Assembly: GCA_963703315.1 (NCBI GenBank)
Contig: OY969811.1
Coordinates: forward strand, 972,728-1,036,727
Length of the DNA stretch: 64,000 nucleotides
DNA from: an uncultured cyanobacterium
GTDB lineage: Bacteria > Cyanobacteriota > Cyanobacteriia > Pseudanabaenales > Pseudanabaenaceae
Direction: 5' to 3'
Part shown: positions 1,356 through 49,847 of the stretch, piece by piece
How the letters are laid out: each line of letters begins with the position of its first letter
Position numbering within the stretch: position 1 is the first letter of the stretch
Notes under the pieces: model-generated
Database searches by the model: none
Seen by the model: only the letters and a program-made list of their open reading frames with translations
Told to the model about the DNA's origin: nothing
Translations under genes and position numbers: made by a program

Positions 1356-1360
1356 TTTGC

Positions 1361-1395
1361 TTTAAAAAAGCCTTGCAAAGCAAGGCTTTTTTAAA
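1361..1395. terminator. Bidirectional terminator-like hairpin TTTAAAAAAGCCTTGC-AAA-GCAAGGCTTTTTTAAA
   Basis: Perfect 16-bp stem with A/T tracts, 5 nt after the M48 stop. Same core stem as 24161-24188. Confidence 0.75.
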
Positions 1396-1416
1396 TTATT
1401 TACTTCGATTTAATAC

Positions 1417-1453
1417 TTGCGATCGGCTTGAGAAGATAGATTGTTAATGCGAT
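1417..1453 (+). repeat. 37-bp direct repeat, copy 1 (left of GmrSD)
   Basis: TTGCGATCGGCTTGAGAAGATAGATTGTTAATGCGAT is 36/37 identical to 3415-3451. Confidence 0.95.
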
Positions 1454-1603
1454 CAAGTTTGAATTAGAGTAAAATCTGCGGTAATTTGCCCTTAAATAAC
1501 GAAACTAAATCACAGTTGTGTTATAAATTTTATAATTGTGAAGCTTAAGAATGCGGTATCCAATTTTTCAAGCATCAATAAATTAAACTTTCAGGAATCT
1601 TAA

Positions 1604-3322
1604 ATGTCATTTCAAATCCCAATCACTATTTCTGCTGCAATTAAAAATATTGAAAATAACCAATATTTACTTCCTGCTATTCAACGTGAATTTGTGTGGA
1701 GCCACGAAAAAATAGAATGGTTGTTTGATTCAATAATGAGAAATTATCCCATAAGTTCATTTTTGTTTTGGCGGGTTGAAGGTGACACTAGGAGAGACTA
1801 TAAGTTTTATCAATTCCTTAAAAATTTTAAGCAACGGTACGCAACTCATAATAACGAGTTCTCAACCACTGGTCACAACGATTTTACAGCAGTGCTTGAC
1901 GGTCAGCAACGTTTGACATCTCTTTATATAGGACTTTGTGGAAGTTATGCATACCGAACACCAAGACTCCATGAAGAAAATAATGAGCGCGTCTATCCAA
2001 CTAGACACCTATATTTGAATATTGAGAATCCGTTAGAAAATGAGGAAGATGGAAGAGATTTTGAATTTAAGTTTTTGAAGAAAAAAGAATTTGAGTCAAA
2101 CAAAGCAAAGTGGTTTAAGGTTTCTGAAATTCTCGCTCTTGCGGATGATTTTGAGTTCAATAGATATCTTGATAATCACAGTCTAAAAACAAATGAATTT
2201 TCATATAGAACTCTGGCGACGTTAAAGAATGTAATTCACTCAAAGCCAACCATAAACTTCTTCCTCGAAACAGAGCAAAGTCTTGATAAAGCGCTGAACA
2301 TTTTCATAAGAATAAACAGTGGGGGTGAACCACTAAATTTTTCAGATTTGCTCATGTCCATTGCTGTGGCTAATTGGAAAAGCAAAGATGCACGAAAAGA
2401 AATTCATACACTGGTCGATAACGTCAGAGAAAAAGGATTTTCAATTTCAAAAGATTTCATCTTGAAGACTTTTTTGTATCTGTACAGCAAAGACATTAAA
2501 TTTAAGGTTACAAATTTCTCAAAAGAAAATGCCAAGGAGTTTGAAAACGAATGGGATAAAATTCGAGATGCAATCCTTTCGGTATTCGATCTTGTAAGAT
2601 CATTTGGATTTTCTGATTCGACATTAACATCAAAAAATGCGTTGATTCCAATAATTTACTACATTTACCATAAAAATATATACAAAGACTTTCACACCAA
2701 AATTGCATATGAAAGCGATAGAAATACCATTAAAAAATGGCTCCACGTGGCTTTGGTTAAGCGAATTTTTGGCGGGACATCGGATAGTGTTCTTAGTCAA
2801 ATTCGCAGGGCATTCACTAGCGATGTATCGATAGCAGCTATTGAATCCCATACTCTAGGATTTCCTGTAAGTAGCATCAATGAAAACACAAAAAAAGATA
2901 TGGGGATTACGGATGAATTCATCACAGACATCTTACTGACCCAAAAAGATGACATGTATGCCTTCTCTATATTGGCATTGTTATATCCGAATCTTGACTA
3001 TAAAAACAACGACTTCAATAAAGATCATATACATCCAGCGAATAAGTTCGGCGACCTTTCAGTTGCTGACAAAGAAAAATATGGATGGGCGACTTACAAC
3101 TCTATTTTGAATCTTCAAATGCTGGATGCTAATGAGAACAAGTCAAAACAGGATAAAGATCTGTTAACTTGGGTCAATTTACAATTAGAGAAACAAGATC
3201 GATTCATATTTCTGAACAGCCATTTGATTCCAGATGTTAGCTTTGAAATTAAGGATTTCGGATCATTTATTGAAGCTCGAAGATTCATCTTGATTGACAA
3301 GCTTAAACAGATTTTGAGTTAA
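1604..3322 (+). CDS. GmrSD-family (DUF262 + DUF1524/HNH-like) putative modification-dependent restriction protein
   Basis: LPAIQREFVW, DGQQRLTSL and FIRINSGG (DUF262 motifs); C-terminal DHIHP...LNLQMLDANENKSK (HNH-like). I found no GCGATCGC in the gene. Confidence 0.88.
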   Translation: MSFQIPITISAAIKNIENNQYLLPAIQREFVWSHEKIEWLFDSIMRNYPISSFLFWRVEGDTRRDYKFYQFLKNFKQRYATHNNEFSTTGHNDFTAVLDGQQRLTSLYIGLCGSYAYRTPRLHEENNERVYPTRHLYLNIENPLENEEDGRDFEFKFLKKKEFESNKAKWFKVSEILALADDFEFNRYLDNHSLKTNEFSYRTLATLKNVIHSKPTINFFLETEQSLDKALNIFIRINSGGEPLNFSDLLMSIAVANWKSKDARKEIHTLVDNVREKGFSISKDFILKTFLYLYSKDIKFKVTNFSKENAKEFENEWDKIRDAILSVFDLVRSFGFSDSTLTSKNALIPIIYYIYHKNIYKDFHTKIAYESDRNTIKKWLHVALVKRIFGGTSDSVLSQIRRAFTSDVSIAAIESHTLGFPVSSINENTKKDMGITDEFITDILLTQKDDMYAFSILALLYPNLDYKNNDFNKDHIHPANKFGDLSVADKEKYGWATYNSILNLQMLDANENKSKQDKDLLTWVNLQLEKQDRFIFLNSHLIPDVSFEIKDFGSFIEARRFILIDKLKQILS

Positions 3323-3445
3323 GCAGACATTCGCAATGCCCCTGTGATCACATTCTATACAAAACTTGGTGTGCGTGAAGATGAGCTTCATTTTGACATT
3401 GCTGTTGATAGTAATTGCGATCGCCTTGAGAAGATAGATTGTTAA
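3323..3445 (+). pseudogene. 3' remnant of an AAC(3)-I-like GNAT acetyltransferase
   Basis: In frame after the GmrSD TAA it reads ADIRNAPVITFYTKLGVREDELHFDIAVDSNCDRLEKIDC*. This resembles the AAC(3)-I C-terminus ([27 protein letters not shown]). No 5' part or start codon. Confidence 0.7.
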
Positions 3446-3640: not shown

Positions 3641-5410
3641 TTAAAATGGATTAGCCGATATAGAAAAATAAATCCCATTTTCTTGTAAAGTTTTTTTCTC
3701 CGCCGAAATACGACTCAGGGGAATCCCAAAATCGAGTCGGATAGTGAGGCGATCGCTTATCTGTAAGCGCAATCCTGTACCTAATGCGGTCAAAGTGCTT
3801 GGATCAGGGTTGGTATTAGCTTGATGATTCCATACTGTACCAAAATCAAAGAATGGTACAACCTGTAAAAGTCCGCTAATTTCAGGAATCCGCAATATAG
3901 GAATCCGCACCTCGGCAGATAAAAGCAATCCATTATCGCTCAGCAGAGCATCTTGTCGATATCCTCGCAGGTTGTCTTGACCACCAATACTAATTTGTTC
4001 CTGTGACAAAAGTGGGCGATCGCTCAGTTGCAGATCGGCACGCAAAAATAACAGAGTTTCGGGGGCCAGCAGACGCACATATTGAGTTTGCCCGCGCCAT
4101 GCCAAAAATTGACTATCGGGAGATACATTATTGATCGTCGCGCCGAGCGCATTAATCCCTAAACTTAGTTGCGATCGCATCGCCAATACTTCTTCAGCAC
4201 TGCGTTGCACATATTCTTGAAAAAAGCGCAGCGCTGTAACTTTGGTCTGACCATCAGCATCAGCACCAAGGGAAGGAAAAGCAATTGTGCCGCCTAGTAA
4301 TGAGGCTGTACTTTGACGATGGCTCAGGGTTAAGCCTAGTGCCACATCTTGAGCAATAGTTTGAAAAATGGGTTGGCGGATTGTCAGTTCGTAATTTCGA
4401 GAATTAGAGGCAATATCGAGAATATTAAAAGGAGTTTCAATCACATTACTAGCAGAAGTTCCAAAGTTAAAGCTGATAGTTCCATTATAAGGATTGAAGG
4501 GAATTGTATAACTCGCATCAAAAGCATTACTACCGTTAGTATTGCTATATGAGAGACTTAGGCGATCGCCTAATCCTGCTAGATTTGCCTCGACAAGTTG
4601 GATTTGGCGACGCTCAGAGCCGACACTGGGAGTCCGACTATTATCAAAAGTAATTGGTATGTTAAAGGTTGGAGCCTCAGTCACCTTGATTTCTAAGTTA
4701 TTTAATCCCGCTTGCAAACTGGGGGACAAATTTGCCGATATGCTCTCAATTAGGGGATTAATTTGTAATAGTTGTAATGCTTCGAGTAGACGAGTACGGT
4801 TTAGAGGTTTCCCAGTGGCGATCGCTATTCGTGATTGAATATAGCCTGAATTAAGCCTGTTCAATCCTGTGACCTTAATTTCATCCAATCCTCCCTCAAT
4901 AACCTGAATCTTGACTATTCCTGTTTGTAAGTCCTGTTCTGGCAAATACGCCCCAGAGGTAATATAACCTCGCTCTAAATAAAGCTCTGTAATTTTAGTT
5001 CTAACTTGAAATAGTTCAATAATAGAAATTGGTTTGTTGGTATAGGATTTAGTAATATTCTCTAGTTCCTGATTGCTAAAAACACTGCTACCAATCACTT
5101 CAAACTTTTTAACTACAATCAATTCAGAATTGCTGTTGCTCGGAATTTGTGGAGATTGGGAATTTTCTAGATTTGGAAGAGTAAATAGACTGTCAGGAGC
5201 AGGCAGTTTAGACGGTTCAGTTGGGGTTTTAGGCGTAACTTTGGGAGCGATATCATTAGGAATTACTAAATTGCGTGGGATCGAGTTAGTTTGAGCAGCG
5301 ATCGCTTGAGGATAAGCATTAAATGCGATCGCGCTCAGTAGCACAACAATAGTATTTTTTTTGTCTTTAAATGTACAGATATACGCATACCATACTTTCA
5401 CAATAACCAC
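3641..5410 (-). CDS. ShlB/FhaC/HecB-family (TpsB) outer-membrane secretion/activation protein
   Basis: Signal-like N-terminus, POTRA segment (FEVIGSSVFS...ITELYLERGYITSG), IGGQDNLRGY loop-6 motif, and terminal F of a beta-barrel (YFSISANPF). Confidence 0.9.
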   Translation of the reverse strand: MVIVKVWYAYICTFKDKKNTIVVLLSAIAFNAYPQAIAAQTNSIPRNLVIPNDIAPKVTPKTPTEPSKLPAPDSLFTLPNLENSQSPQIPSNSNSELIVVKKFEVIGSSVFSNQELENITKSYTNKPISIIELFQVRTKITELYLERGYITSGAYLPEQDLQTGIVKIQVIEGGLDEIKVTGLNRLNSGYIQSRIAIATGKPLNRTRLLEALQLLQINPLIESISANLSPSLQAGLNNLEIKVTEAPTFNIPITFDNSRTPSVGSERRQIQLVEANLAGLGDRLSLSYSNTNGSNAFDASYTIPFNPYNGTISFNFGTSASNVIETPFNILDIASNSRNYELTIRQPIFQTIAQDVALGLTLSHRQSTASLLGGTIAFPSLGADADGQTKVTALRFFQEYVQRSAEEVLAMRSQLSLGINALGATINNVSPDSQFLAWRGQTQYVRLLAPETLLFLRADLQLSDRPLLSQEQISIGGQDNLRGYRQDALLSDNGLLLSAEVRIPILRIPEISGLLQVVPFFDFGTVWNHQANTNPDPSTLTALGTGLRLQISDRLTIRLDFGIPLSRISAEKKTLQENGIYFSISANPF

Positions 5411-5848
5411 TTCCAGCTTTCGCTAAAAAACTAGTAGACTGACTTGTATTTTATTATCTATTTTTCTTTTATAACTATCTCAATGATGAGTGCAAAGTCA
5501 CTCCAAGCGTAATACTTGAAGTTCCTTGAATAGACAAGAGAACGATTCAGATTATCTTGTGACATATACTTTAAGATATAGGTAGAATAATTTATAATTC
5601 ATCCACAACATTAATATGTAAGTTGTTAGTAAAATACTGCAAAACTGTATGCCTTTTGAGTGAATGCTAAAATCGAGATTTTTAAATTTGTTCTGGTTGA
5701 TCTTATCTCTATTAGCCTCTTTTTTACATACCCAACTTCACAATTTATTACACTTTGCCCAAATGTTTAATGGCTAATTGATCATGTAGATATACTAATC
5801 ACTCTAGAATGTTATTTTATTGTTTGCTAAAATCAACCTAACTAAGCT

Positions 5849-6469
5849 GTGATCAGAAATATTATGCAAGCAACTGTAATTGATGCCGAAATACAACAAG
5901 AACTTGAGCCACAAATTCGGCTCTGGTCGATCGCTGATTATCACCAAATGATTGAAGCAGGAATTTTAGATGAAGATGATCGCGTAGAACTTTTGGAAGG
6001 AAAAATTGTTTGTAAAAATTTTCAAAGTCTATTTCGGGCATCTAGCATACAGCGCAGCAGTAATTTTCTGTTTAACTTACTAAGCGATCGCGCCGAAATT
6101 CGTGTGCAGTTACCCGTGATTTTAGGCAATGACTCCGAGCCAGAGCCAGATCTTGCCATCGTGAGATTTGACAACCATGAATATTCCTTTAGACATCCTG
6201 AAGTAGCTGATATTTATTTGTTAATTGAAGTTGCCGATTCAACTATTGCTAAAGATCGCAAGCAAAAAGCGCGTATCTATGCCAAAAATCAGATTTTAGA
6301 ATATTGGATTCTCGATTTGCAAAAGCGACAGGTTTATGTTTTTCGTCAGCCCGAAGAAAGTGTTTATCGCGAAGAATTGATTCTGAATAGCAGTGATAGT
6401 ATCGCCATGCAAGCATTTCCTGATGTGGCGATCGCTTTAGATGCTATGTTTCCTATTGCACAAAATTAA
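5849..6469 (+). CDS. Uma2 (DUF820) family endonuclease-fold protein; ATG 5864 is an alternative start
   Basis: RVELLEG, SEPEPDLAIV, LLIEVADS, KARIYA and EYWILDL motifs. Confidence 0.88.
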   Translation: MIRNIMQATVIDAEIQQELEPQIRLWSIADYHQMIEAGILDEDDRVELLEGKIVCKNFQSLFRASSIQRSSNFLFNLLSDRAEIRVQLPVILGNDSEPEPDLAIVRFDNHEYSFRHPEVADIYLLIEVADSTIAKDRKQKARIYAKNQILEYWILDLQKRQVYVFRQPEESVYREELILNSSDSIAMQAFPDVAIALDAMFPIAQN

Positions 6470-6481
6470 CTAAATATTCCT

Positions 6482-7306
6482 ATGGCTGCACCTTGGGCGG
6501 GAGAACTAGAATTAGAATTTATCAAGCGGAATCAACAAACCGTATTAACCCGTAATTACACCGTAGCACCTTGGAAAATTCAGCGATCGCTCTATCCAGA
6601 AGGTGATGAGGTTTGCCATTGCATCTTGCTTCATACCGCAGGTGGTCTAGTGGGCGGCGATCGCCTATCTGCAAAAATTCATTTACAACCCCATACTCAA
6701 GCCCTAATTACCACGGCAGCCGCCAGCAAGATCTATCGCAGCACAGGTGCAGAATCCCTACAAAATCTCCATATTCACATCGATGAAGGTGCAAGTTTAG
6801 AATGGTTTCCTCAAGAAACGATCGCCTTTGCTGAATCAAATTATCGCCAAACTACAAGAATTGACTTGGCGGCAAATGCAACCTGTACTCTATGGGAAAT
6901 CGTCAGGTTTGGGCGCACCGCAAGGGGCGAAAAATTTCTCGATGGCAATTGGCGATCGCATACAGAAGTATGGCGCGATCAAAGCCCTTTATGGATTGAT
7001 CGGCAATATCTCAATGGAAATTCGGAAATGTTAGGAAGTCCTAATGGATTAAATAACTATGCGATCGCTGCAAGCTTTATCTTTGTCGGCGCACAAGTTG
7101 AACCTGAATTAATTACACAGATTCGTTCTACTTGGGAACAGGGTAATTATCAGGGAGTCTCAGGAGTGACGCGATCGCTATGTGGTTTGGTTTGCCGCTA
7201 CTGCGGCAACTCGTCTAGCGATGCGCGTAAATGGTTTCAGCAAATTTGGCAGCTTTTGCGTGTATCCTATAGGGATAGAGCAATATGCGTACCCAGAGTT
7301 TGGTAA
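6482..7306 (+). CDS. ureD: Urease accessory protein UreD
   Basis: HTAGGLVGGD, TTAAASKIY and LEWFPQETI motifs; directly upstream of ureA. Confidence 0.93.
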   Translation: MAAPWAGELELEFIKRNQQTVLTRNYTVAPWKIQRSLYPEGDEVCHCILLHTAGGLVGGDRLSAKIHLQPHTQALITTAAASKIYRSTGAESLQNLHIHIDEGASLEWFPQETIAFAESNYRQTTRIDLAANATCTLWEIVRFGRTARGEKFLDGNWRSHTEVWRDQSPLWIDRQYLNGNSEMLGSPNGLNNYAIAASFIFVGAQVEPELITQIRSTWEQGNYQGVSGVTRSLCGLVCRYCGNSSSDARKWFQQIWQLLRVSYRDRAICVPRVW

Positions 7307-7312
7307 TTATCT

Positions 7313-7615
7313 ATGCAGCTTACGCCTCAAGAAAAAGATAAATTATTGATTTTCACGGCTGCCCTGTTAGCGGAACGACGCAAAGCCAAAGGACTTAAGT
7401 TAAATTATCCTGAAGCGATCGCTTTTATAACTGCCGAGATTATGGAAGGGGCAAGGGAAGGTCGCACGGTTGCGGAATTGATGTCTTACGGCGCAACTTT
7501 ACTCACCCGCGATGATGTAATGGAAGGTATCCCCGAAATGATCCATGATGTGCAAGTTGAGGCAAATTTTCCCGATGGAACCAAACTTGTCACAGTACAT
7601 AATCCAATTCGCTAG
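7313..7615 (+). CDS. ureA: Urease gamma subunit
   Basis: [11 protein letters not shown]...LNYPEA...[14 protein letters not shown]. Confidence 0.98.
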
Positions 7616-7636
7616 CCTGAGCTATGGAGGTCTGAG

Positions 7637-8281
7637 ATGATTGCGATCGCAATGCCCCAAAAACAACAAAAACAAACAGAGTTAGAACAGAAACTAACCT
7701 TTGAGCAGTTTCTAAAAATTTATCCTGAATATGGACATTATGAACTTATTGATGGTGAGCTAGTTGAGATTTTTGAAATGGCATTTACATGCAATCATGA
7801 CGATGTTGGAGAGTTTATCGATAGACGTTTTTATAGTGAAGTCGAACGATTAGCTCTTAACTATGTCATTAAGAGAGCAGTTCCCATAAGAAGCATCGAC
7901 CAAGACGGAAATGAGCGTGGGCGTGTACCTGACTTAAGTGTGATTGATGCGACATCTTGGCGCTCTAATCGTAGTGACTATAAAGGATTTCGCGACAAAA
8001 TTCAGTTAGCTGTTGAAGTAGTTTCTACAAACTGGGAAGATGATTATGTTGACAAGTTTGAAGAATATCAACGCTTGGGCATTTCTGAATATTGGATTGT
8101 AGATTATTTAGCGATCGCTAGTCGTGAGTTTCTTGGTAATCCTAAGATCCCCACTGTGTTTGTTAATTTACTAGATGAAAATGGTAAATATCAAACAACT
8201 AAATTTACAGGAGATGACAAAATTATTTCACAGACTTTTCCTGAACTAAATTTAACTGCGGCAGAAATCTTAAACATCTAA
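7637..8281 (+). CDS. Uma2 family protein inserted between ureA and ureB
   Basis: YELIDGELVE, RVPDLSV, LAVEVVS and KFEEYQRLGISEYWIVD motifs. Confidence 0.9.
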   Translation: MIAIAMPQKQQKQTELEQKLTFEQFLKIYPEYGHYELIDGELVEIFEMAFTCNHDDVGEFIDRRFYSEVERLALNYVIKRAVPIRSIDQDGNERGRVPDLSVIDATSWRSNRSDYKGFRDKIQLAVEVVSTNWEDDYVDKFEEYQRLGISEYWIVDYLAIASREFLGNPKIPTVFVNLLDENGKYQTTKFTGDDKIISQTFPELNLTAAEILNI

Positions 8282-8613: not shown

Positions 8614-10326
8614 ATGAGTTATAGAATGTCTCGTCGCGCTTATGCAGAAACCTATGGCGCAACCGTTGGTGATAAAGTTCGCTTAGCCGATACCGAATTA
8701 TTTATTGAAGTGGAACGCGACTACACCACCTATGGCGATGAAGTAAAATTTGGTGGTGGTAAGGTGATCCGTGATGGTATGGGGCAATCACCAATTACTA
8801 ATGTCAATGGAGCCGTTGATGTCGCGATTACCAATGCTTTAATTCTCGACTGGTGGGGCGTAGTGAAGGCAGATGTGGGGATTAAAGATGGCAAGATTGT
8901 AGCGATCGGGAAGGCGGGAAATCCTTACATTCAAGATAATGTCAATATCATTATCGGTGCGGGTACAGAAATCATCGCAGGAGAAGGAAGGATTCTCACC
9001 GCAGGCGGCATTGATACGCATATCCATTTTATCTGTCCACAACAAATTGAAGTAGCGATCGCCTCAGGCATTACGACAATGATCGGTGGCGGGACTGGCC
9101 CTGCCGTTGGCACAAATGCGACCACTTGCACCCCTGGTCCTTGGAATATGTACCGTATGTTGCAAGCCGCCGATGCTTTCCCGATGAATTTAGGATTTCT
9201 TGGTAAAGGTAATAGCAGCAAGCCTGAAGGCTTGGTTGAGCAGGTGGAAGCGGGTGCGATCGGGCTAAAACTTCATGAGGATTGGGGAACGACTCCCGCC
9301 ACGATTGATACTTGTTTAGGGGTTGCCGATGAGTACGATGTGCAGGTTGCTATTCACACCGACACGCTCAACGAAGCGGGATTTGTGGAAGATACGATCG
9401 CAGCTTTCAAAAATCGTGTGATCCATACCTATCACACCGAAGGTGCGGGTGGTGGTCACGCTCCCGACATTATCAAGATTTGCGGTGAAGCGAATGTTCT
9501 TCCCTCTTCCACAAATCCCACTCGTCCCTACACTTTAAATACTCTTGATGAACATCTGGATATGCTGATGGTCTGTCACCATCTCGATCCTAGCATTCCT
9601 GAAGATGTTTCCTTTGCAGAATCAAGAATCCGTCGCGAAACGATCGCTGCTGAAGATATTCTCCATGATATCGGCGCGTTTAGTATGATTTCTTCCGATT
9701 CGCAAGCAATGGGAAGAGTCGGTGAAGTAATCATTAGAACTTGGCAAACTGCCCACAAAATGAAAGTGCAGAGAGGGGTTCTCTCTAGTCCTGAAAGTAC
9801 TAGAGCCGACAATTTCCGCGCTCAGCGCTATGTGGCAAAATACACCATCAATCCCGCGATCGCGCATGGTATTTCTGAATATGTCGGTTCCATTGAAGTT
9901 GGTAAAATTGCTGATCTCGTTCTCTGGCATCCTGCCTTTTTTGGCGTAAAGCCTGAAATGGTTCTAAAGGGTGGATTTATTGCATGGTCACAGATGGGCG
10001 ATGCCAATGCCAGCATTCCCACACCGCAGCCTGTGTATATGCGTCCGATGTTTGGTAGCTATGGCGGTGCTATCGCGCCCACATCCTTTACTTTTATTTC
10101 TCAAGTTGCAATGGAGCGAGGTATTCCCAGTCAATTAGGACTCAAGAAACAAGTACTTACGGTTAAAGGAACTCGTAACATCAGCAAACGAGACTTAAAG
10201 CTCAATGATGCTTTACCAGTAATGGAAGTCGATCCAGAGACTTATGAAGTTAGAGCCGATGGTGAATTATTGACCTGTGAGCCAGCTTCTGTGTTGCCGA
10301 TGGCACAGCGATATTTCTTGTTTTAA
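8614..10326 (+). CDS. ureC: Urease alpha subunit
   Basis: [26 protein letters not shown] and [12 protein letters not shown] motifs. Confidence 0.99.
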
Positions 10327-21395: not shown

Positions 21396-23660
21396 ATGAA
21401 ATCGCCACAACCCCCTTCCCCACCATCGCAGCCTAAGCCTCCTAAATCTAAGTTGATGACCCAGATTAATCAACTGACGCAGGTGGTTAATGGTGTTTTA
21501 AAAATTAATCCCAAAGAGCGTGTCCCTAAGTTAGAAGTTCGCCGATCGCAAAAGGATCAGCCCGAAATATATGACTTGGTAGGCGATCGCTACATATTAG
21601 GACGTAGTACCAGCAAATGCGATATAGTCGTGCAAACGCCCCTTGTCAGCCAAGTTCACGCCCAATTAGTTCGCGATCGCACCCAAAAGAAAGCCCAGTT
21701 TATTCTTCAAGATCAAGACTCAACTAATGGTATTTATCGCAGCAATAAGCAGCGTTTAAAATCCGTGCCATTAAAGCACAACATGAAAATTACGCTGGGC
21801 CCGCCCGAACTCGCGGAAGCTGCCACAATTCGCTATCTCAATCCGCCACCTTGGTATATTCGCACGGTGCAGTATACGGGGATTGGTATTGGCGCGATCG
21901 CAGGGATGATGATTTTAGCGATCGGTTATGAATTGGGGCGTGTCCCTGATCTCAAGCCTCTACCCGTTACCCAACAAGGACCTGTGGAAGTATTGGCTGG
22001 TGATGGCGTTAAGCGCCTCGATCCAACGGATATAGCAAATCATACGGAATATGGCAGTTTTGCGGAATTTGGGAAATTCATTCCCGCCGCCGTGATTGCC
22101 TCTGAAGATACTTCTTTTTATTGGAATATTGGGGTTGATCCTGTGGGGGTGGTGCGGGCGATCGTCACCAATGTTCGCAGTCGCGGTGAGCGCTTAGAAG
22201 GTGCTAGTACGATTACGCAGCAATTAGCACGGAATTTGCTAGGCAAAACCTATGTGGGAACCGATGACTCCGCAGGGCGCAAATGGCGTGAGGCGGCGGC
22301 GGCGATCAAACTCACATTTACCTACAACAAGGAAGAGATTCTCCGTTTATATCTCAATCGTGCCTATACAGGTAATGGGGTGTATGGCTTTAAGGATGCT
22401 GCCAAACTATATTTTGGGAAAGAAGCTTCAGAACTAAATCTCTCAGAAGCCGCTACCCTCGTGGGTTTATTACCTTCTCCTGAACTAATCAATCCCTTTA
22501 AAAATAAGAACTTAGCGATCGAATATCGCGATCGCATTCTCAATCGCATGGCAGAGTTGGGAATGATTACCGATAAGGATGCGGATCGAGCAAGGCGATC
22601 GGTACTCATTCTCAATGAAGCGGCGAAAACTAAGCTGCAAGGCTCCGTTGCCCCCTATTACTACAGTTATGTCTTTGAAGAACTGCAAGAGATTCTCGGT
22701 GATAACTTTGCCAAGGAAGGCAATGTGATTGTCGAGACTAATCTCGATCTTGCTATGCAAAAGGCTTCCGATGAGGCACTGCGGGATGCTGTTGCGCGTG
22801 ATGGTGACAGCTATGGATTTAGTCAAGGGGCGATCGTCACGGTGAATGCTAGCGATGGTTCACTGTTAGCCATGACGGGTGGAGTCAATTACCAAGCCAG
22901 TCAATTTAATCGCGCCTCCCAAGCCTTGCGCCAACCAGGGTCAACTTTCAAGTTATTTAGCTATGCTGCCGCCGTCGATCGCGGTATTTCGCCGAGTACT
23001 GCTTTTTCTTGTAGTGGCTTCTCTGGGGTTGTTGGCTGTCATAATGGCGGTAGTGGGGCGATCGATATGTATCGCGGCTTTGCTCTGTCGGAAAACGTGG
23101 TGGCGTTACGAGTAGCCGAGAGCGCAGGACTGGATAATGTTGTAAAAATGGCAAAAAACTTAGGGATCACTGCCAAGCTTGACGCTTCTAGCAATATGGT
23201 ACTGGGCGGTAATGAGGTGAAAATCTTAGAAATGGCAGGAGCCTACGCTACGGTGGTCAATGAGGGTAAATACATCAAGCCCCATGCGATCAAACGGATT
23301 CTCGATAGTGCCGATTGTCAAAATCCTAAAGATCGAAAAACCTGTCGCGTTATTTTTGATGCCAGTACTTTTATCAAGCCCCGTCAGGCGATCGATGCAG
23401 GGGTGGCAAGTACGATGGTCGATATGATGCGCGGTGTAGTGCAGTATGGTACGGGGCGATCGGCGGCAATTCCGCAGGGAACTGTGATTGGTAAAACGGG
23501 AACTACTGACGAAGGACGCGATCTCTGGTTTATCGGTGCTGTGCCTAGACGCAACCTTGTCACAGCAGTCTGGCTAGGCAATGATGAAGGGGTAACTAGA
23601 GGCTCAAGTGCAGTCGCTGCACAGGTTTGGGGTGATTATATGCGGCAAGCGGTACGCTAG
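21396..23660 (+). CDS. Class A penicillin-binding protein with an N-terminal FHA domain
   Basis: FHA (YILGRS..CDI...VSQVHA...STNG), transglycosylase (SED, GASTITQQL), and transpeptidase (RQPGSTFK, KTGT) motifs. Confidence 0.92.
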   Translation: MKSPQPPSPPSQPKPPKSKLMTQINQLTQVVNGVLKINPKERVPKLEVRRSQKDQPEIYDLVGDRYILGRSTSKCDIVVQTPLVSQVHAQLVRDRTQKKAQFILQDQDSTNGIYRSNKQRLKSVPLKHNMKITLGPPELAEAATIRYLNPPPWYIRTVQYTGIGIGAIAGMMILAIGYELGRVPDLKPLPVTQQGPVEVLAGDGVKRLDPTDIANHTEYGSFAEFGKFIPAAVIASEDTSFYWNIGVDPVGVVRAIVTNVRSRGERLEGASTITQQLARNLLGKTYVGTDDSAGRKWREAAAAIKLTFTYNKEEILRLYLNRAYTGNGVYGFKDAAKLYFGKEASELNLSEAATLVGLLPSPELINPFKNKNLAIEYRDRILNRMAELGMITDKDADRARRSVLILNEAAKTKLQGSVAPYYYSYVFEELQEILGDNFAKEGNVIVETNLDLAMQKASDEALRDAVARDGDSYGFSQGAIVTVNASDGSLLAMTGGVNYQASQFNRASQALRQPGSTFKLFSYAAAVDRGISPSTAFSCSGFSGVVGCHNGGSGAIDMYRGFALSENVVALRVAESAGLDNVVKMAKNLGITAKLDASSNMVLGGNEVKILEMAGAYATVVNEGKYIKPHAIKRILDSADCQNPKDRKTCRVIFDASTFIKPRQAIDAGVASTMVDMMRGVVQYGTGRSAAIPQGTVIGKTGTTDEGRDLWFIGAVPRRNLVTAVWLGNDEGVTRGSSAVAAQVWGDYMRQAVR

Positions 23661-24118: not shown

Positions 24119-24160
24119 ACAAATTTATTAAAGTTGCATAAATTGCAATTTCTAAGCATG

Positions 24161-24188
24161 AAAAAGCCTTGCGATCGCAAGGCTTTTT
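24161..24188. terminator. Palindromic terminator with HIP1 at its centre
   Basis: AAAAAGCCTTGCGATCGCAAGGCTTTTT is a perfect 28-bp palindrome. Confidence 0.8.
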
Positions 24189-24248
24189 TACTTTATCTAG
24201 ATTTTTCTAAGTGTTTATAGTTTCGATCAATATTTGAATATGTTGCTA

Positions 24249-24962
24249 TTAGTCAAATAGTTTTAAAAATTCTTTGAGTTCACCTAAAGCAGGATGTTCA
24301 AAATCCCAAATATGTAGTTTATTTGTCATTACATAATCAAAACCTGACATACTGCATTTTCTCCCAGCCTGCTCATTCTCCTCACCAATGCAAGTATCAA
24401 ACCGCAAATAGTTACTAACCCAAAATTTATCGAAATCTTTTTGACTAATTGATTCACTACTAAGTTTTTCTACACAGGTTTTCCATGCTTCAAGACAGTC
24501 GGCTTTTGGTGATGGTTGTGATTTAATTGATTTTAGTAATGTTTCTAATTCACCTTTACCGTTGATATTAACAAAATAGCAAGCTATCTGAAGAGAAAAT
24601 AGTTTTTGGTCAGATGCAACAAAAGAAATATTTATAAAACTGTTGATTCTTTCAATCTTATCTTGCTGTAATTGAGGAAAGATGCTTTTAATTGCATTAT
24701 TTATAAGATCAAACTTTTCTTCTTGAGAATTATCTGCATCTAAAATTATGCCAACCTTAGAGATATCGTTGTTTTCAGCAGCAGCCTTTATATCTCCTAA
24801 TTCACCTTTTAGAGAGGATAAACTTAACCCTCCCAAAGTCATATAATCATTATCAGATAGATTTATTTCGAGAATCTCTATGTTATGAATATTGAGATAA
24901 TTTACAAGAGATTGAATAAAGATTTTATCGTTTTTACTTTCAACAATTATACGGTTACTCAC
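24249..24962 (-). CDS. DUF3226-like TOPRIM-fold protein; probable GTG start at 24962 overlapping the ATPase stop
   Basis: IIVESKND (TOPRIM Glu), GIILDAD (DxD), GELETLL and WDFEHP motifs. Confidence 0.75.
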   Translation of the reverse strand: MSNRIIVESKNDKIFIQSLVNYLNIHNIEILEINLSDNDYMTLGGLSLSSLKGELGDIKAAAENNDISKVGIILDADNSQEEKFDLINNAIKSIFPQLQQDKIERINSFINISFVASDQKLFSLQIACYFVNINGKGELETLLKSIKSQPSPKADCLEAWKTCVEKLSSESISQKDFDKFWVSNYLRFDTCIGEENEQAGRKCSMSGFDYVMTNKLHIWDFEHPALGELKEFLKLFD

Positions 24963-26031
24963 CTCTAACTCTCCTATCATGAGACAAGCTATATTCAAGC
25001 GTTTCTATGTCACGTTTAATACCAATGATCTGCCCAGTTTTAATACTTCGAGCCATCTCAAAATGTGCAGCTAAATCACTAAATTCACTTTCTAATCCAA
25101 CTTTAGTAAATGCTGTAAGCATTTCCAAACTATGAGTAGTAGCAAATATTTGTACATTAAATTCTTGGGCTAAGTGAAATAATACTCTCCATAAACTAGT
25201 TTGATTAGTATAGTGAATCCCATTTTCTATTTCGTCTATGAGCAATATATTGCTATTGTTATTAACTATCGAAAGAATAATAATGGCAATCCTATTAATA
25301 GCATCTCCAAATAAAGGCAAAGGTAATCTTTTTTCATTATTGCGCGTTAAATAAAGCATAGGACTTCCTATGCCAAAATACTCAATTAAATCTATAGATG
25401 AATCAACAATCCTCAATCCATTCAACACTTCTTTTTCTCTATAATTAAGCCTAGCTTTATCATATTCATCTGCGATTTGCTGTTGAGAAAATACAAAACT
25501 AGATGGTATGAATGGGATATCATCTTTTCCTAAAGGCTTAAATCCATTTCCTAGAATACCTTGTTTATTAGCTATCAACTTACCTTTGAATGTTGTATCT
25601 TTGTTGATAACAGATTCTATTTGTATAGCAGATGATCTAGCAGACAAAGAATTTATATGTCTGGTAGTATCAATTAAGTTGTTTGATTCTATTAAGTTAT
25701 CATCATCAATTTCGACAAAAAAACTATTAGTCTGAGCGCTAATAGTTTTAGTATTAGTCTGAATAGAAATTGTCTTTGATTTATCTTGACTAAAAAACAA
25801 ATAATCCCAAGCTCTTTCAGGTAAGGTTTTGTCCAACTCTTCAGATTCATGACGATAACCCTTAAGAGATGCTAGTGTCTCTGGGTACGGAGAGCCGCCT
25901 AAAAGTAAAGCTTCTAGAAGTGCTGTTTTGCCTGCGTTATTTTTGCCAGTGATGAGATTGACGGTTTTAAAACCAGAGATTGAGGTGTTTTCAAAGCATC
26001 TAAAGTTTTGGATTGAGATATCTCTGATCAT
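24955..26031 (-). CDS. ABC-type AAA ATPase (AAA_15/AAA_21 family)
   Basis: Walker A GKNNAGKT, Walker B LLIDEIENGIH, H-loop ATTHS; no TM segments. Confidence 0.9.
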   Translation of the reverse strand: MIRDISIQNFRCFENTSISGFKTVNLITGKNNAGKTALLEALLLGGSPYPETLASLKGYRHESEELDKTLPERAWDYLFFSQDKSKTISIQTNTKTISAQTNSFFVEIDDDNLIESNNLIDTTRHINSLSARSSAIQIESVINKDTTFKGKLIANKQGILGNGFKPLGKDDIPFIPSSFVFSQQQIADEYDKARLNYREKEVLNGLRIVDSSIDLIEYFGIGSPMLYLTRNNEKRLPLPLFGDAINRIAIIILSIVNNNSNILLIDEIENGIHYTNQTSLWRVLFHLAQEFNVQIFATTHSLEMLTAFTKVGLESEFSDLAAHFEMARSIKTGQIIGIKRDIETLEYSLSHDRRVRGE

Positions 26032-26131
26032 GGATTTTATTGCCTAGACATTACAAAATATTTTAATCTGAAAACAAGAAAGGGCAGCGCATGGCACTAC
26101 CCTTTTAATTGCTGGAAATAGCGATCGCAAT

Positions 26132-47638: not shown

Positions 47639-47964
47639 AATTCAATTCCTTCTTTTCTAATATTTCTTAAAAACTCAACATCTCTTTTGCTGAAGTCTTC
47701 TTCGGTGACAGGGATAATAGAGACAAGTTCATCACGTTCTAGTAATATTTTGACACGCAGGTTGGACATATAGGAGATCTCTTGTACTTGAGATACGGGG
47801 CTTTTGAGTACGGCTAGTAAGTCAATATCTGAGTCTGGAGTGGCTTCGCCTCTGGCGTGGGAACCAAATAGAATTAATTTAACAAGGCGATCGCCATATA
47901 GTGCTTGCAACTCTCGCTTGAGTTCGTTAAGTATTGGAGTAATGCTCGTTAAAGTGGTAGTCAT
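47635..47964 (-). CDS. Minimal nucleotidyltransferase (MNT)
   Basis: LFGSHARG...SDIDL; ATGA overlap with the HEPN gene. Confidence 0.92.
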   Translation of the reverse strand: MTTTLTSITPILNELKRELQALYGDRLVKLILFGSHARGEATPDSDIDLLAVLKSPVSQVQEISYMSNLRVKILLERDELVSIIPVTEEDFSKRDVEFLRNIRKEGIEL

Positions 47965-48141
47965 TTTCTAAGGAAAGTAACGATAAAATTCTTTGCGGTG
48001 TAATGTGCGGATGACTTCTACTGTGTTACCCGAAATTTCTATGCCAATGCGATAGTCACCTACTCGAATACGATAACGGGTTGAATATCCTTGCATGGCT
48101 TTAATATTCGGTAGTTCCTGCAAGTTCTGAGCTTCAGGCAA

Positions 48142-49434
48142 TAGGGCAACCGCACACGTTTCTTAACAAACTAGCGAACATTTCTTAACGAGGAAAAAAG
48201 GGAGAAACGGGAGAATTGAGGATATTTAGAAAGATAAGTCCAAAATGCTAGCAACAGTCAGTCCCGTCGGATTAATCGAAACCCACTTTGGGAACTTGCA
48301 AGATCCCAGAGCAGCACACAGTATCCTGCATAAGCTACTCGACATATTGATAATCACGATTTGTGCAGTGATCTGTGGAGCCGATAACTTCGTAGCAATC
48401 GCCGAATATGGCAAAGAGAAAGAAGAATGGTTAAAGACATTTTTGGAATTAGCAAACGGCATACCGTCAGTAGATACATTCGAGAGATTATTTGCGAGAC
48501 TGAAGCCAGAAGCATTGCAAAAAAGCTTTATTAGCTGGATGGAAGCAGTCCATGAATCCACCGACGGAGAATTGATAAACATAGATGGCAAAACCCTGAG
48601 AGGAGCAAAGGAAGCAGGAAATTCGCGTAGTCTGATTCATATGGTGAGTGTGTGGTCAGCATCACAACATTTGGTATTGGGACAGCAAAAAGTGGACGAG
48701 AAATCCAATGAAATAACAGCGATTCCATCATTGCTAAAAATGTTAGCGATACGAGGTTGTGTGGTGAGCATAGATGCAATGGGATGTCAGACCGAAATCG
48801 CGAAAACAATCATCGAAGAGGGAGCAGATTATGTGTTAGCACTGAAAGGCAATCAAGGTAATCTCCATAAAGATGTGCGTGAACTATTTACCTCTGCACG
48901 AGAACAGAACTTCAAAAATATTGAACATCAGTTCTATGAAACGGTTGAGAAAGGACATGGGCGCATTGAAACTCGTCGCTATTGGACAATGGGTAATACC
49001 GAATACTTAATCGGTGCAGAGAAATGGATAGGTTTGAAAAGTATTGGTATGGTTGAATCAGAGCGCATTATAAATGGAATTATTTCTACTGAGCAGCGAT
49101 ACTATCTGCTTAGTCTTGAGAGTGATGTCCACAGATTTTCCCAATCTGTCAGAAATCACTGGAGTATTGAAAATCAACTACATTGGATTCTTGATGTTGG
49201 TTTTGGTGAAGATGCTTCGCAATCCTGCCGAGGCTATATTGCCGAAAACTTGGCTGTTATACGTCATATCAGTTTAAATTTGTTGTCAAGAGATAAAAAC
49301 AGTAAGGTCGGTGTCAAGACAAAACGTCTTAAAGCTGGCTGGAACAACAACTATCTTAAGGATATCCTGAGTACCTTAAACATAGTCGCTGTCTAAATCT
49401 CGTTAATTGTTAAGAAACGTGTGCGGTTGCCCTA
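48142..49434 (+). mobile_element. ISAs1-family insertion sequence (1293 bp)
   Basis: Perfect 28-bp TIR (TAGGGCAACCGCACACGTTTCTTAACAA) and 10-bp TSD CTTCAGGCAA at 48132-48141 and 49435-49444. Confidence 0.97.
48245..49396 (+). CDS. ISAs1 family DDE transposase (intact ORF)
   Basis: DPR...H.L, IDGK, KSNEITAIP, IDAMGCQ, LKGNQ, GHGRIE and HWSIEN.LHW.LD motifs. Confidence 0.97.
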   Translation: MLATVSPVGLIETHFGNLQDPRAAHSILHKLLDILIITICAVICGADNFVAIAEYGKEKEEWLKTFLELANGIPSVDTFERLFARLKPEALQKSFISWMEAVHESTDGELINIDGKTLRGAKEAGNSRSLIHMVSVWSASQHLVLGQQKVDEKSNEITAIPSLLKMLAIRGCVVSIDAMGCQTEIAKTIIEEGADYVLALKGNQGNLHKDVRELFTSAREQNFKNIEHQFYETVEKGHGRIETRRYWTMGNTEYLIGAEKWIGLKSIGMVESERIINGIISTEQRYYLLSLESDVHRFSQSVRNHWSIENQLHWILDVGFGEDASQSCRGYIAENLAVIRHISLNLLSRDKNSKVGVKTKRLKAGWNNNYLKDILSTLNIVAV

Positions 49435-49541
49435 CTTCAGGCAAGGTTGTAAAGGCAATTTCAGAGATGCGTTGATATACTGATGTGCCTTTCAGATTTT
49501 TGAGATCTTTCAAAAATGACTGACGATAATTCACTTCCATT

Positions 49542-49757
49542 TTAATCCTCTAAAAAAGCTAGAGCTTCTGCATGGGAGTAAAGAGGAGTTTTTTTACCTT
49601 CATCCATTGCTTTATTGAGACAATAATCTTCTATAGCTTCGCTAAGGTCTTCTAGGGAGGCGTTATCAATGGGTAGGAGTTGTCTCCAAATTGCGATGGG
49701 GATGACAACGGCGGTTGTTTGTCCTTCTTTGTTAGTTAGATATTCAAGGTCTAGCAT
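49542..49757 (-). CDS. Putative antitoxin upstream of relE
   Basis: 71-aa acidic protein (EGQTTAVVIPI...IEDYCLNKAMDE) whose stop is 1 nt before the relE ATG. Confidence 0.8.
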   Translation of the reverse strand: MLDLEYLTNKEGQTTAVVIPIAIWRQLLPIDNASLEDLSEAIEDYCLNKAMDEGKKTPLYSHAEALAFLED

Positions 49758-49847
49758 GATTGACTCTCTTGTTGATGTTTTTGTGTAAACTTTCTTTTAT
49801 TTTATAACTTTAGCTAAGGGCGATCGCTTAGTCATGTATTTACAAAA

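What the first reader, a model, noticed from the sequence alone, without database searches (positions are those of the whole stretch)
24249..26031. HIP1-free ABC-ATPase + DUF3226/TOPRIM two-gene cassette (PARIS-like architecture)
Seen: a translationally coupled pair (8-nt overlap) between hup and the DUF212-crtE core genes, AT-rich and lacking HIP1. Established: ABC-ATPase sensor plus TOPRIM nuclease effector is the architecture of PARIS (AriA/AriB) and related OLD/AbiE-like defences. Inference: a candidate abortive-infection or TA system. I do not know of a characterised member with this DUF3226-type effector, which also carries several Cys residues (ACYF, DCLEAWKTC, DTC, RKC).
Basis: partly seen in the sequence, partly recalled or inferred. 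Interest (0 to 1): 0.66.

Follow-up and report, generated by a model that had tools for sequence, protein, structure and literature searches.

The report
ABC ATPase plus DUF3226 Toprim pair
Two overlapping, horizontally acquired genes in a Pseudanabaena chromosome encode a small ABC-type ATPase and a small Toprim nuclease. The pair belongs to a catalogued but never tested candidate anti-phage family (PADLOC PDC-M38), so it resembles PARIS and AbiL without being a member of either.

Summary
At 24249-26031 (minus strand) a 358-aa ABC ATPase gene overlaps a 237-aa DUF3226 gene by 8 nt. The stretch has the lowest GC in the window (32% against 42%) and no HIP1 site for 1,950 bp.

DUF3226 is a real Toprim nuclease. 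E8, D12, D75 and D77 are invariant across the family, and K179 and a GELE motif are nearly so. The model has Toprim strand and helix order. A profile comparison with AriB-type DUF4435 gives 91% probability over the core only. The best solved-structure match is the Toprim RNase of retron Eco2.

The ATPase has a Rad50/SMC/PtuA-like head with no coiled coil and a hypervariable beta-rich insert. That insert has been swapped between near-identical strains.

The pair is accessory. It occurs in 12 of 25 Pseudanabaena species, and the ATPase lies directly upstream in all 80 loci checked.

It matches PADLOC PDC-M38 A and B. It is not PARIS (no AriB family match, only a weak AriA match), not AbiL (no AbiLii match) and not a fused OLD nuclease.

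The most likely function is an abortive-infection or toxin-antitoxin-like defence in which the ATPase senses and restrains the nuclease. Nothing has been tested experimentally. I class it as a new member of a known, uncharacterised kind, of moderate interest.

The parts
24955..26031 (-). ABC-type (Rad50/SMC/PtuA-like) ATPase, 358 aa. Motifs: Walker A GKNNAGKT (res 29-36), Walker B LLIDE (263-267), H-loop TTHS (298-301).
   Evidence: Pfam AAA_15 1e-22 and AAA_21 8e-16. PADLOC AbiLi PDLC02336 1.8e-56 and PDC-M38A 9.2e-55, both full length; AriA only 2.7e-23. AF2 model pLDDT 85.9. Foldseek top hits are PtuA, the retron I-A ATPase, Rad50 and SMC heads. Invariant motif residues come from alignment A3.
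25350..25950 (-). Hypervariable central segment of the ATPase (about aa 28-227, core of variability aa 86-180): a beta-rich insert that I take to be the sensor surface.
   Evidence: Column conservation is 0.26-0.5 here against 0.7-0.95 in the flanks. Identity to the G022 and G007 orthologues is 31-34% in aa 86-180 against 73-78% elsewhere. DNA identity to strain BL-A-41 falls to 65-74% here, while the rest of the locus is mostly 91-97%. AF2 gives strands at 88-162 with a disordered loop at 113-130 and no coiled coil.
24249..24962 (-). DUF3226 protein, 237 aa from GTG: an N-terminal Toprim nuclease core (res 1-131) and a C-terminal helical domain carrying two Cys pairs.
   Evidence: Pfam DUF3226 8.6e-23. 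PADLOC PDC-M38B 9.1e-11. Invariant E8, D12, D75, D77; K179 in 54/55; G137 in 53/55; E140 as E or D in 52/55. AF2 pLDDT 91.3 with b1-a1-b2-a2-b3-a3-b4 order. Foldseek top hit 9i2f_C, retron Eco2 RT-Toprim. hhalign against DUF4435 gives 91% over the core.
24955..24962 (-). 8-nt gene overlap GTGAGTAA (start of DUF3226 inside the stop region of the ATPase), implying translational coupling.
   Evidence: Sequence. The same overlap is modal (50 of 80) in related loci.
26079..26105 (-). Hairpin (terminator-like) between the DUF212 stop and the ATPase start. It marks the left boundary of the inserted cassette.
   Evidence: Terminator scan. In cassette-free G002, similarity ends inside the left arm of the hairpin. 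In G022 a second copy of the hairpin plus about 20 nt flanks the other end of the cassette.
24159..24190 (.). Palindromic, HIP1-containing bidirectional terminator between the convergent hup and DUF3226 genes. Homology with the BL-A-41 locus ends at 24247, just inside it.

Best explanation
This is a horizontally acquired two-gene anti-phage (or anti-mobile-element) module of the PDC-M38 type.

The upstream gene makes a small Rad50/SMC-like ABC ATPase. In place of a coiled coil it carries a hypervariable beta-rich insert, which I take to be the surface that recognises an invader-derived trigger. The downstream gene is translationally coupled and makes a DUF3226 protein. That protein is a stand-alone OLD/Eco2-type Toprim nuclease with a complete two-metal active site. 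I assign E8, D75 and D77 to metal A, D12 and E138/E140 to metal B, and K179 as the catalytic lysine.

By analogy with PARIS and retron Eco2, the ATPase would hold the nuclease inactive. Trigger binding and ATP turnover would release or activate it. The nuclease would then cut nucleic acid, stopping growth or phage replication. RNA, especially tRNA, seems somewhat more likely as the substrate than DNA.

Shown here: gene structure, domain identity, catalytic-residue conservation, strict pairing, accessory and mobile distribution, and sensor-region swapping. Inferred: complex formation, the trigger, the substrate and the abortive outcome.
For: - PADLOC PDC-M38A and PDC-M38B both match on adjacent genes.
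- In 80 of 80 related loci the ATPase is directly upstream on the same strand, usually with an 8-nt overlap. The pairing also holds in Microcoleus, Desulfococcaceae and Acinetobacter.
- The Toprim signature is invariant across 55 representatives taken from a search of clusters at 50% identity. Eco2 residues E374/D460/D462, D378/S513/E515 and K562 (PMC12405507) have counterparts with matching order and spacing.
- The motif IV form E[GS]xxD plus DxD is the one described for retron I-C Toprim domains (PMC7736814).
- The Foldseek top hit is Eco2. hhalign to AriB-type DUF4435 gives 91% probability. Eight of 44 members weakly hit Pfam OLD-like_TOPRIM.
- Distribution is patchy: 12 of 25 congeners, with decayed copies in some.
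- Cassette GC is below flank GC in 65 of 65 loci.
- The ATPase centre has been swapped between strains whose surrounding DNA is mostly 91-97% identical, as expected for an immune sensor under diversifying selection.
- Some homologues lie next to toxin-antitoxin pairs, an MmeI-type restriction-modification gene and transposases.
Against: - No member of the family has been tested. A full-text search of about 8.4 million papers finds neither 'DUF3226' nor 'PDC-M38'.
- The only ATPase-plus-Toprim candidate assayed in the PADLOC preprint (HEC-01, a different HMM family) gave no protection.
- This copy sits among housekeeping genes, not in a defence island.
- Structural similarity to solved Toprim nucleases is modest: Eco2 TM 0.44, E 1.3e-3. 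AriB, OLD and GajA are not among the top 50 hits.
- No own promoter was detected; the cassette may depend on read-through past a hairpin.
Confidence: 0.68

Rival explanations
1. It is a Gabija/OLD-like DNase system. The ATPase-nuclease complex would nick or cut invading or replicating DNA directly, without sequestration and release and without abortive RNA cleavage.
For: The catalytic set is the one defined in class 2 OLD DNases. Members weakly hit Pfam OLD-like_TOPRIM. The ATPase also matches GajA and OLD models weakly.
Against: In OLD and GajA the two domains are fused, whereas here they are split in 80 of 80 loci. The best structural neighbour is an RNase (Eco2), and the nearest split system by profile is AriB, a tRNA nuclease.
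Confidence: 0.17
2. It is a selfish toxin-antitoxin (addiction) module. It would stabilise itself or adjacent DNA and have no role in phage defence.
For: It is a two-gene overlapping operon with a potentially toxic nuclease. It is patchy and horizontally spread. PARIS itself behaves as a toxin-antitoxin pair.
Against: It is almost absent from plasmids and phages: the single 'plasmid' hit among 72,556 records is a 4-Mb Acinetobacter chromosome record, and the two phage-collection hits lie on 240-kb contigs carrying glyQ and glyS. A hypervariable, recombining sensor region is hard to explain without an external, evolving ligand.
Confidence: 0.1
3. It is a housekeeping DNA-repair or RNA-processing pair (a RecF/Rad50-like ATPase with a Toprim enzyme).
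For: The ATPase N-terminus resembles RecF and Rad50. The module lies beside hup and core biosynthetic genes.
Against: It is absent from half of the genus and from 15 of the 16 other cyanobacterial genomes (each a different genus) in the relatives search. It is pseudogenised in some genomes. Its composition is foreign. It occupies different sites in different species.
Confidence: 0.03

Closest known systems
PADLOC phage-defence candidate PDC-M38 (Payne et al. 2024 preprint, doi 10.1101/2024.01.29.577857)
   Same: Both proteins match its HMMs (M38A 9.2e-55 full length; M38B 9.1e-11, four models) and are adjacent. This is the family the window's pair belongs to.
   Different: Nothing structural differs. 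PDC systems were predicted by 'guilt-by-embedding' in BREX, DISARM or type I RM loci and are explicitly untested. This copy is not embedded in any defence locus.
PARIS (AriA/AriB)
   Same: A split ABC ATPase plus a stand-alone Toprim nuclease in a two-gene operon. The Toprim cores are homologous: hhalign 91% with E...D and DxD aligned.
   Different: The ATPase is 358 aa with no coiled-coil legs (AriA is about 55 kDa). The AriA HMM gives only a weak hit, and AriA is absent from the Foldseek top 50. The effector is DUF3226, not DUF4435, and its C-terminal 150 aa cannot be aligned. The trigger and substrate are unknown.
AbiL (AbiLi/AbiLii) of Lactococcus
   Same: The ATPase gives its best PADLOC score to an AbiLi model (1.8e-56, full length). 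AbiLii is also predicted to be a Toprim/OLD-like protein (PMC13064643).
   Different: No AbiLii model matches the second protein at E<0.1. The lactococcal AbiLi is 453 aa, larger than this ATPase.
Retron Eco2 (Ec67) RT-Toprim effector domain
   Same: It is the best solved-structure match (9i2f_C, probability 0.99, E 1.3e-3). It has the same E[GS]xxD + DxD motif form and the same full set of metal-A, metal-B and lysine catalytic residues. Eco2 Toprim is an RNase that nicks tRNA acceptor stems (PMC12916289).
   Different: There is no reverse transcriptase and no msDNA, so control would come from an ATPase instead of an msDNA cage. HMMER detects no sequence similarity. TM is only 0.44.
OLD-family nucleases and Gabija GajA
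   Same: An ABC ATPase combined with a two-metal Toprim nuclease, with the same catalytic logic.
   Different: OLD and GajA are single fused polypeptides, and Gabija adds a GajB helicase. Here the two domains are always separate genes (80/80), and all 150 listed family representatives are 312 aa or shorter.
PH0156 of Pyrococcus horikoshii (PDB 2p62), the structural-genomics member behind Pfam DUF3226
   Same: It is the only PDB sequence that the family profile touches (E 0.077, N-terminal 'IIVEGKTDE ... VVRDVDE').
   Different: It is a very distant archaeal protein of unknown function, and it is not among the Foldseek top 50 for this model.

Membership tests
Pfam DUF3226 (PF11536) | Match to the family HMM above the gathering score | tested here: met
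   81.6 bits against a cut-off of 27, covering 2-204 of 208 profile positions. All 44 aligned homologues also match.
Toprim superfamily | Conserved Glu after strand 1 and DxD after strand 3 of a b-a-b-a-b-a-b fold | tested here: met
   E8, D75 and D77 are invariant in 55 of 55 diverse representatives. AF2 gives strands at 2-7, 40-42, 67-75 and 110-115 with intervening helices. hhalign to DUF4435 aligns both motifs.
OLD/Eco2-type two-metal Toprim nucleases | Second-metal ligands (Asp four residues after the Glu, plus an S/ExE motif) and a catalytic Lys | tested here: met
   D12 in 55/55; E140 as E or D in 52/55; E138 as E or D in 42/55; K179 in 54/55. They were matched by order and spacing to Eco2 D378/S513/E515/K562. 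The assignment is by sequence pattern, not by superposition.
PADLOC PDC-M38 | Adjacent genes matching the PDC-M38A and PDC-M38B models | tested here: met
   M38A 9.2e-55 (1-350 on 1-377 of 383 positions). M38B 9.1e-11, plus three weaker M38B models. The genes overlap.
PARIS | AriA-family ATPase with a coiled-coil trigger-binding insertion | tested here: not met
   AriA HMMs give 2.7e-23 and 3.3e-23, far below AbiLi and M38A. The AF2 insert is beta-rich with no coiled coil. AriA is not in the Foldseek top 50.
PARIS | AriB effector of the DUF4435 family | tested here: not met
   No DUF4435 or AriB hit in Pfam or PADLOC. Profile-profile similarity covers only 73 core columns.
PARIS | Activation by anti-restriction proteins (Ocr) and cleavage of tRNA-Lys | not testable with these tools
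   This needs phage infection and RNA cleavage assays.
AbiL | AbiLi-type ATPase | tested here: met
   PDLC02336 AbiLi 1.8e-56, 1-354 on 1-338 of 340 positions.
AbiL | AbiLii-type partner | tested here: not met
   No AbiLii model matches the second protein at E<0.1.
OLD family (classes 1-2) / Gabija GajA | ATPase and Toprim fused in one polypeptide | tested here: not met
   They are two genes here and in 80 of 80 related loci. All 150 listed family representatives are 97-312 aa.
Retron type I-C (Eco2) | Reverse transcriptase fused to the Toprim domain, with an msr/msd ncRNA | tested here: not met
   The protein is 237 aa with no RT domain. The upstream gene is an ABC ATPase.

The most novel reading that the evidence does not exclude
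ABC-ATPase/DUF3226 pairs may be a distinct, always-split class of OLD-like immune systems with three features.

(i) The effector would be a free-standing relative of the retron-Eco2 Toprim RNase and would arrest translation by cutting tRNA or RNA.

(ii) Specificity would reside in a short beta-sheet insert of a coiled-coil-less ATPase, an insert that is exchanged by recombination between strains like an allelic cassette.

(iii) In the largely cyanobacterial subclade, the effector has gained a second Cys pair (C191/C203). Together with the family-wide pair C156/C163 it could form a metal (Zn or Fe-S) site.
Probability: 0.3. Interest if true: 0.6.

Novelty: new member of a known kind. Interest (0 to 1): 0.4.

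Why it matters
If the module is a working defence system, it would be one of the smallest ATPase-plus-Toprim immune pairs. It is common in bloom-forming and mat-forming cyanobacteria (Microcystis, Dolichospermum, Planktothrix, Microcoleus, Nostoc), whose phage defences are poorly characterised.

The natural sensor swap between two Pseudanabaena strains offers a ready-made experiment on how specificity is encoded. The nucleases are 95% identical and the ATPase ends are conserved, but the ATPase centres are only about 65-74% identical in DNA.

Knowing whether the nuclease cuts tRNA, as AriB and Eco2 do, or DNA, as OLD and GajA do, would help map how Toprim effectors diversified.

As a sequence finding it is not new. 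The family is already listed in PADLOC, and earlier notes from this scan report the same module in many other genomes.

Tried and rejected
- Sequence searches of the PDB with the protein and with profile A1 found nothing meaningful. The wider profile A2 touched only PH0156 (2p62), at E 0.077.
- Foldseek against the viral library gave only weak hits: an RloB-like protein at E 0.011 and a DnaG Toprim at 0.13.
- Literature searches for 'DUF3226' and 'PDC-M38' returned no papers. Makarova et al. 2011 (PMC3194920) is cited for an 'unnamed two-gene system in Nostoc', but it is not held. I could not check whether that system is this family.
- I considered HIP1 absence as stand-alone proof of foreign origin and rejected it. 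Gaps this long occur about as often as chance allows. The composition and distribution data carry the argument.
- I asked whether the boundary hairpin is a genome-wide repeat or mobile-element end. It is not: one copy in G000 and none in G002.
- I considered a single four-Cys metal site as a family feature and rejected it. Only C156 and C163 are family-wide. C191 and C203 come and go together.
- My first synteny script failed because several loci are stored in one file. It was redone.
- I could not obtain Eco2-family sequences for a profile-profile test. The link to Eco2 therefore rests on Foldseek and on published motifs.
Full report
**1. The observation**

On the minus strand of the window lie two overlapping ORFs. 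The first is 24955-26031 (358 aa, ATG start). The second ends at 24249.

The second gene most likely starts at GTG 24962. That start is preceded by AGGAGA 9-14 nt upstream and gives the overlap GTGAGTAA with the ATPase stop. Three further observations support it:
- The Pfam match begins at that residue.
- The consensus N-terminus of 44 homologues is MSNxLIVESKND.
- An 8-nt overlap is the modal arrangement in 80 related loci.

The public annotation uses ATG 24980, giving 243 aa.

HU lies on the other strand. DUF212, a polyprenyl synthase and FolD lie upstream on the same strand. An FHA-fused class A PBP, a Uma2 protein, a Usp protein, a DAGK/YegS-like kinase and HypD lie further out.

The cassette has GC 0.32 and GC3 0.21-0.24, against GC3 0.38-0.46 in its neighbours. 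It is the lowest-GC 1.9-kb stretch of the window.

HIP1 (GCGATCGC) occurs 144 times in the window, against 0.84 expected, and not once between 24178 and 26121. On its own that void is weak evidence. Three other gaps are as long, and about 1.8 are expected by chance. Two of the other three voids also hold accessory genes: a GmrSD-like gene at 1604-3322 and an IS transposase at 48245-49396. In this window, then, HIP1 voids do tend to mark acquired DNA.

**2. The nuclease partner**

Pfam places the 237-aa protein in DUF3226 at 81.6 bits. No solved structure is detectable by sequence, apart from a marginal hit of the wide family profile to PH0156 (2p62).

A scan of 1.84 billion representative proteins (one per cluster at 50% identity) found 419 relatives. 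All of the 150 listed are stand-alone proteins of about 100-310 aa.

In an alignment of 55 diverse representatives (27-50% identical to the query), E8, D12, D75 and D77 are invariant. K179 is present in 54 of 55, G137 in 53 of 55, and E140 is E or D in 52 of 55.

The AlphaFold2 model is confident (pLDDT 91.3). It shows strand 2-7, helix, strand 40-42, helix, strand 67-75, helix, strand 110-115. The Glu follows strand 1 and the DxD closes strand 3, which is the Toprim topology. A helical C-terminal half follows.

Independent support for Toprim homology:
- Eight of 44 members weakly match Pfam OLD-like_TOPRIM.
- A profile-profile comparison with eight cyanobacterial DUF4435 (AriB-type) domains gives 91% probability (E 1e-6). 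It covers 73 columns that align both motifs, and nothing beyond them.
- The best Foldseek hit in the PDB is chain C of retron Eco2, an RT-Toprim fusion (probability 0.99, E 1.3e-3, TM 0.44).

The published catalytic set of Eco2 is E374/D460/D462, D378/S513/E515 and K562 (PMC12405507). The retron I-C motif form is 'EGxxD ... DxD' (PMC7736814). Both map by order and spacing onto E8/D75/D77, D12/E138/E140 and K179. I therefore regard DUF3226 as an intact two-metal Toprim nuclease. This residue assignment is by pattern, not by superposition.

**3. The cysteines**

Across the family, C156 and C163 (the ADCLxxWxxC motif) are present together in 53 of 55 sequences. C191 and C203 co-occur in 22-23 sequences and are both absent in 27-28. 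C128 is present in 43 of 55.

So there is a family-wide pair and a second pair gained as a unit in the mainly cyanobacterial subclade. A four-Cys metal site is possible in that subclade but is not a family feature. I could not measure distances in the model, so this remains unexplained.

**4. The ATPase**

Pfam gives AAA_15, AAA_21 and AAA_23. Walker A (GKNNAGKT), Walker B (LLIDE) and the H-loop (TTHS) are invariant in 42 homologues.

PADLOC's best full-length matches are AbiLi (PDLC02336, 1.8e-56) and PDC-M38A (9.2e-55). AriA scores only 2.7e-23, and PtuA and GajA score lower still.

The AlphaFold2 model (pLDDT 85.9) is an ABC head. The insert between the N- and C-terminal halves is beta-rich (strands at 88-162, disordered loop at 113-130) and not a coiled coil. 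The nearest solved structures are PtuA, the retron I-A ATPase, Rad50 and SMC heads. AriA is not in the top 50.

**5. The pairing is obligate and the module is mobile**

- In 80 of 80 loci from species-representative genomes, the ATPase lies immediately upstream on the same strand. Direct inspection of Pseudanabaena, Microcoleus, Desulfococcaceae and Acinetobacter loci agrees.
- The hosts are mostly cyanobacteria. They also include Desulfobacterales, Thiotrichales, Runella, Caldilinea and a Saccharibacteria MAG.
- Cassette GC is below flank GC in 65 of 65 loci, 33% against 43%.
- Within Pseudanabaena, 12 of 25 species genomes carry a copy, with protein identities from 92% down to 40% and some decayed copies. 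Only 1 of the 16 other cyanobacterial genomes sampled (each a different genus) does.
- folD-crtE-DUF212 is conserved in all 14 congeners examined. The cassette follows DUF212 only in G006 and G022 and in strain BL-A-41.
- The gene beyond the cassette differs each time: hup here, SulP in G006, recG in G022. Other species carry the cassette at unrelated sites.
- In cassette-free G002, similarity to the window stops inside the left arm of the hairpin that follows DUF212.
- The module is almost absent from plasmid and phage collections.

**6. Sensor swapping**

Against strain BL-A-41, window DNA is mostly 91-97% identical (dipping to 86-87% in two bins) from crtE through DUF212 and the first about 80 nt of the ATPase gene. 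Identity returns to 90-97% through DUF3226. It falls to 65-74% between 25950 and 25350, recovers only gradually (81-87%) through the rest of the ATPase gene, and homology stops at 24247, the end of the cassette.

At the protein level DUF3226 is 95% identical and the ATPase 64%. Against G022 and G007, ATPase residues 86-180 are 31-34% identical while the flanks are 73-78%. Family-wide conservation shows the same trough.

A recombining, hypervariable insert in an otherwise conserved ATPase is what one expects of a surface that recognises rapidly evolving ligands.

**7. Mechanism**

The best-supported reading is a defence module. In it the ATPase senses a trigger and controls a potentially toxic Toprim nuclease, as in PARIS. 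There, AriA sequesters AriB and releases it on binding Ocr, and AriB then cuts tRNA (PMC10802264 and PMC11464382).

RNA is slightly favoured as substrate, because the closest structural and profile relatives, Eco2 Toprim and AriB, are RNA nucleases. A DNase of OLD or Gabija type cannot be excluded.

Complex formation, trigger, substrate and outcome are all inferences. No promoter-like site was found between the hairpin and the ATPase start. Transcription may therefore come from read-through of the folD-crtE-DUF212 unit or from a non-consensus promoter.

**8. Comparison with known systems**

The pair meets the definition of PADLOC's PDC-M38. That is one of 145 candidates predicted by embedding in BREX, DISARM or type I RM loci and explicitly left untested. 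The one ATPase-plus-Toprim candidate tested in that study (HEC-01, a different HMM family) showed no protection.

- It is not PARIS: there is no DUF4435 effector, AriA similarity is weak, and there is no coiled coil.
- It is not AbiL: there is no AbiLii match.
- It is not an OLD or GajA nuclease: the domains are never fused.
- It is not a retron: there is no reverse transcriptase.

Authors of the PARIS structure mention an 'unnamed two-gene system in Nostoc' from Makarova et al. 2011 among the ATPase-plus-Toprim systems. That paper is not held, so I cannot say whether it is this family.

**9. Earlier notes of this scan**

Other agents reported the same module in many genomes. They reached the same assignment (PDC-M38) and also noted a swappable ATPase centre. 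I treated these notes as leads and re-derived both points from this window's own data.

**10. Verdict**

This is a clean, intact example of a catalogued but uncharacterised candidate defence family.

What this analysis adds:
- the structural and motif link to the Eco2-type Toprim RNase;
- the full active-site assignment;
- the paired behaviour of the cysteines;
- a well-resolved natural sensor swap at a defined chromosomal site.

Interest is moderate (0.4). Novelty class: a new member of a known kind.

Noticed in passing
window 1604-3322 (+): A 572-aa GmrSD_N (DUF262) protein, 6.6e-33, probably a type IV restriction enzyme. It sits in the window's largest HIP1-free gap (966-3417) and in its second low-GC region, so it is another likely acquired defence gene.
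   Followed up: partly
window 48245-49396 (+): An IS-type transposase (DDE_Tnp_1_assoc + DDE_Tnp_1) lies inside another 1.9-kb HIP1-free gap (47887-49820). Three of the four long HIP1 voids in the window cover accessory genes.
   Followed up: partly
L038 (G022:C7) 7400-7720 and 9440-9600: In Pseudanabaena sp. UBA1465 the cassette is flanked by about 45-nt direct repeats (hairpin AAGGGTAGTGCnnnGCGCTACCCTTT plus 'ctcattttcagattaaaatat'). A degenerate DUF212 fragment (about residues 39-81, 65% identity, one stop codon) lies between the DUF3226 stop and the downstream repeat. This suggests arrival by recombination together with a foreign DUF212 segment.
   Followed up: partly
G000:C1:4256992-4257603 and 762632-763003 (outside the window): The same genome carries two DUF4435 (AriB-type Toprim) matches elsewhere, so it may also hold PARIS-like systems in addition to this pair.
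   Followed up: no
G009:C178:33226-33931, G017:C13:35624-35812, G003:C14:136950-137702: Some congeners carry DUF3226 genes that are interrupted by stop codons or split into pieces. These are decaying copies of the module.
   Followed up: no
window 21396-23660 (+): The class A penicillin-binding protein (Transgly + Transpeptidase) has an N-terminal FHA domain (2e-14), an unusual fusion that suggests phospho-threonine-dependent regulation.
   Followed up: no
window 24159-24190: The bidirectional terminator between hup and the DUF3226 gene is a perfect palindrome built around a HIP1 site (AAAAAGCCTTGCGATCGCAAGGCTTTTT).
   Followed up: no
L046 (CAKLQH020000003.1) 4886-6702: A record labelled 'Acinetobacter phage MD-2021a' (240-kb contig) carries the ATPase-DUF3226 pair directly after glyQ-glyS. 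The context looks chromosomal, so the phage label is doubtful.
   Followed up: partly
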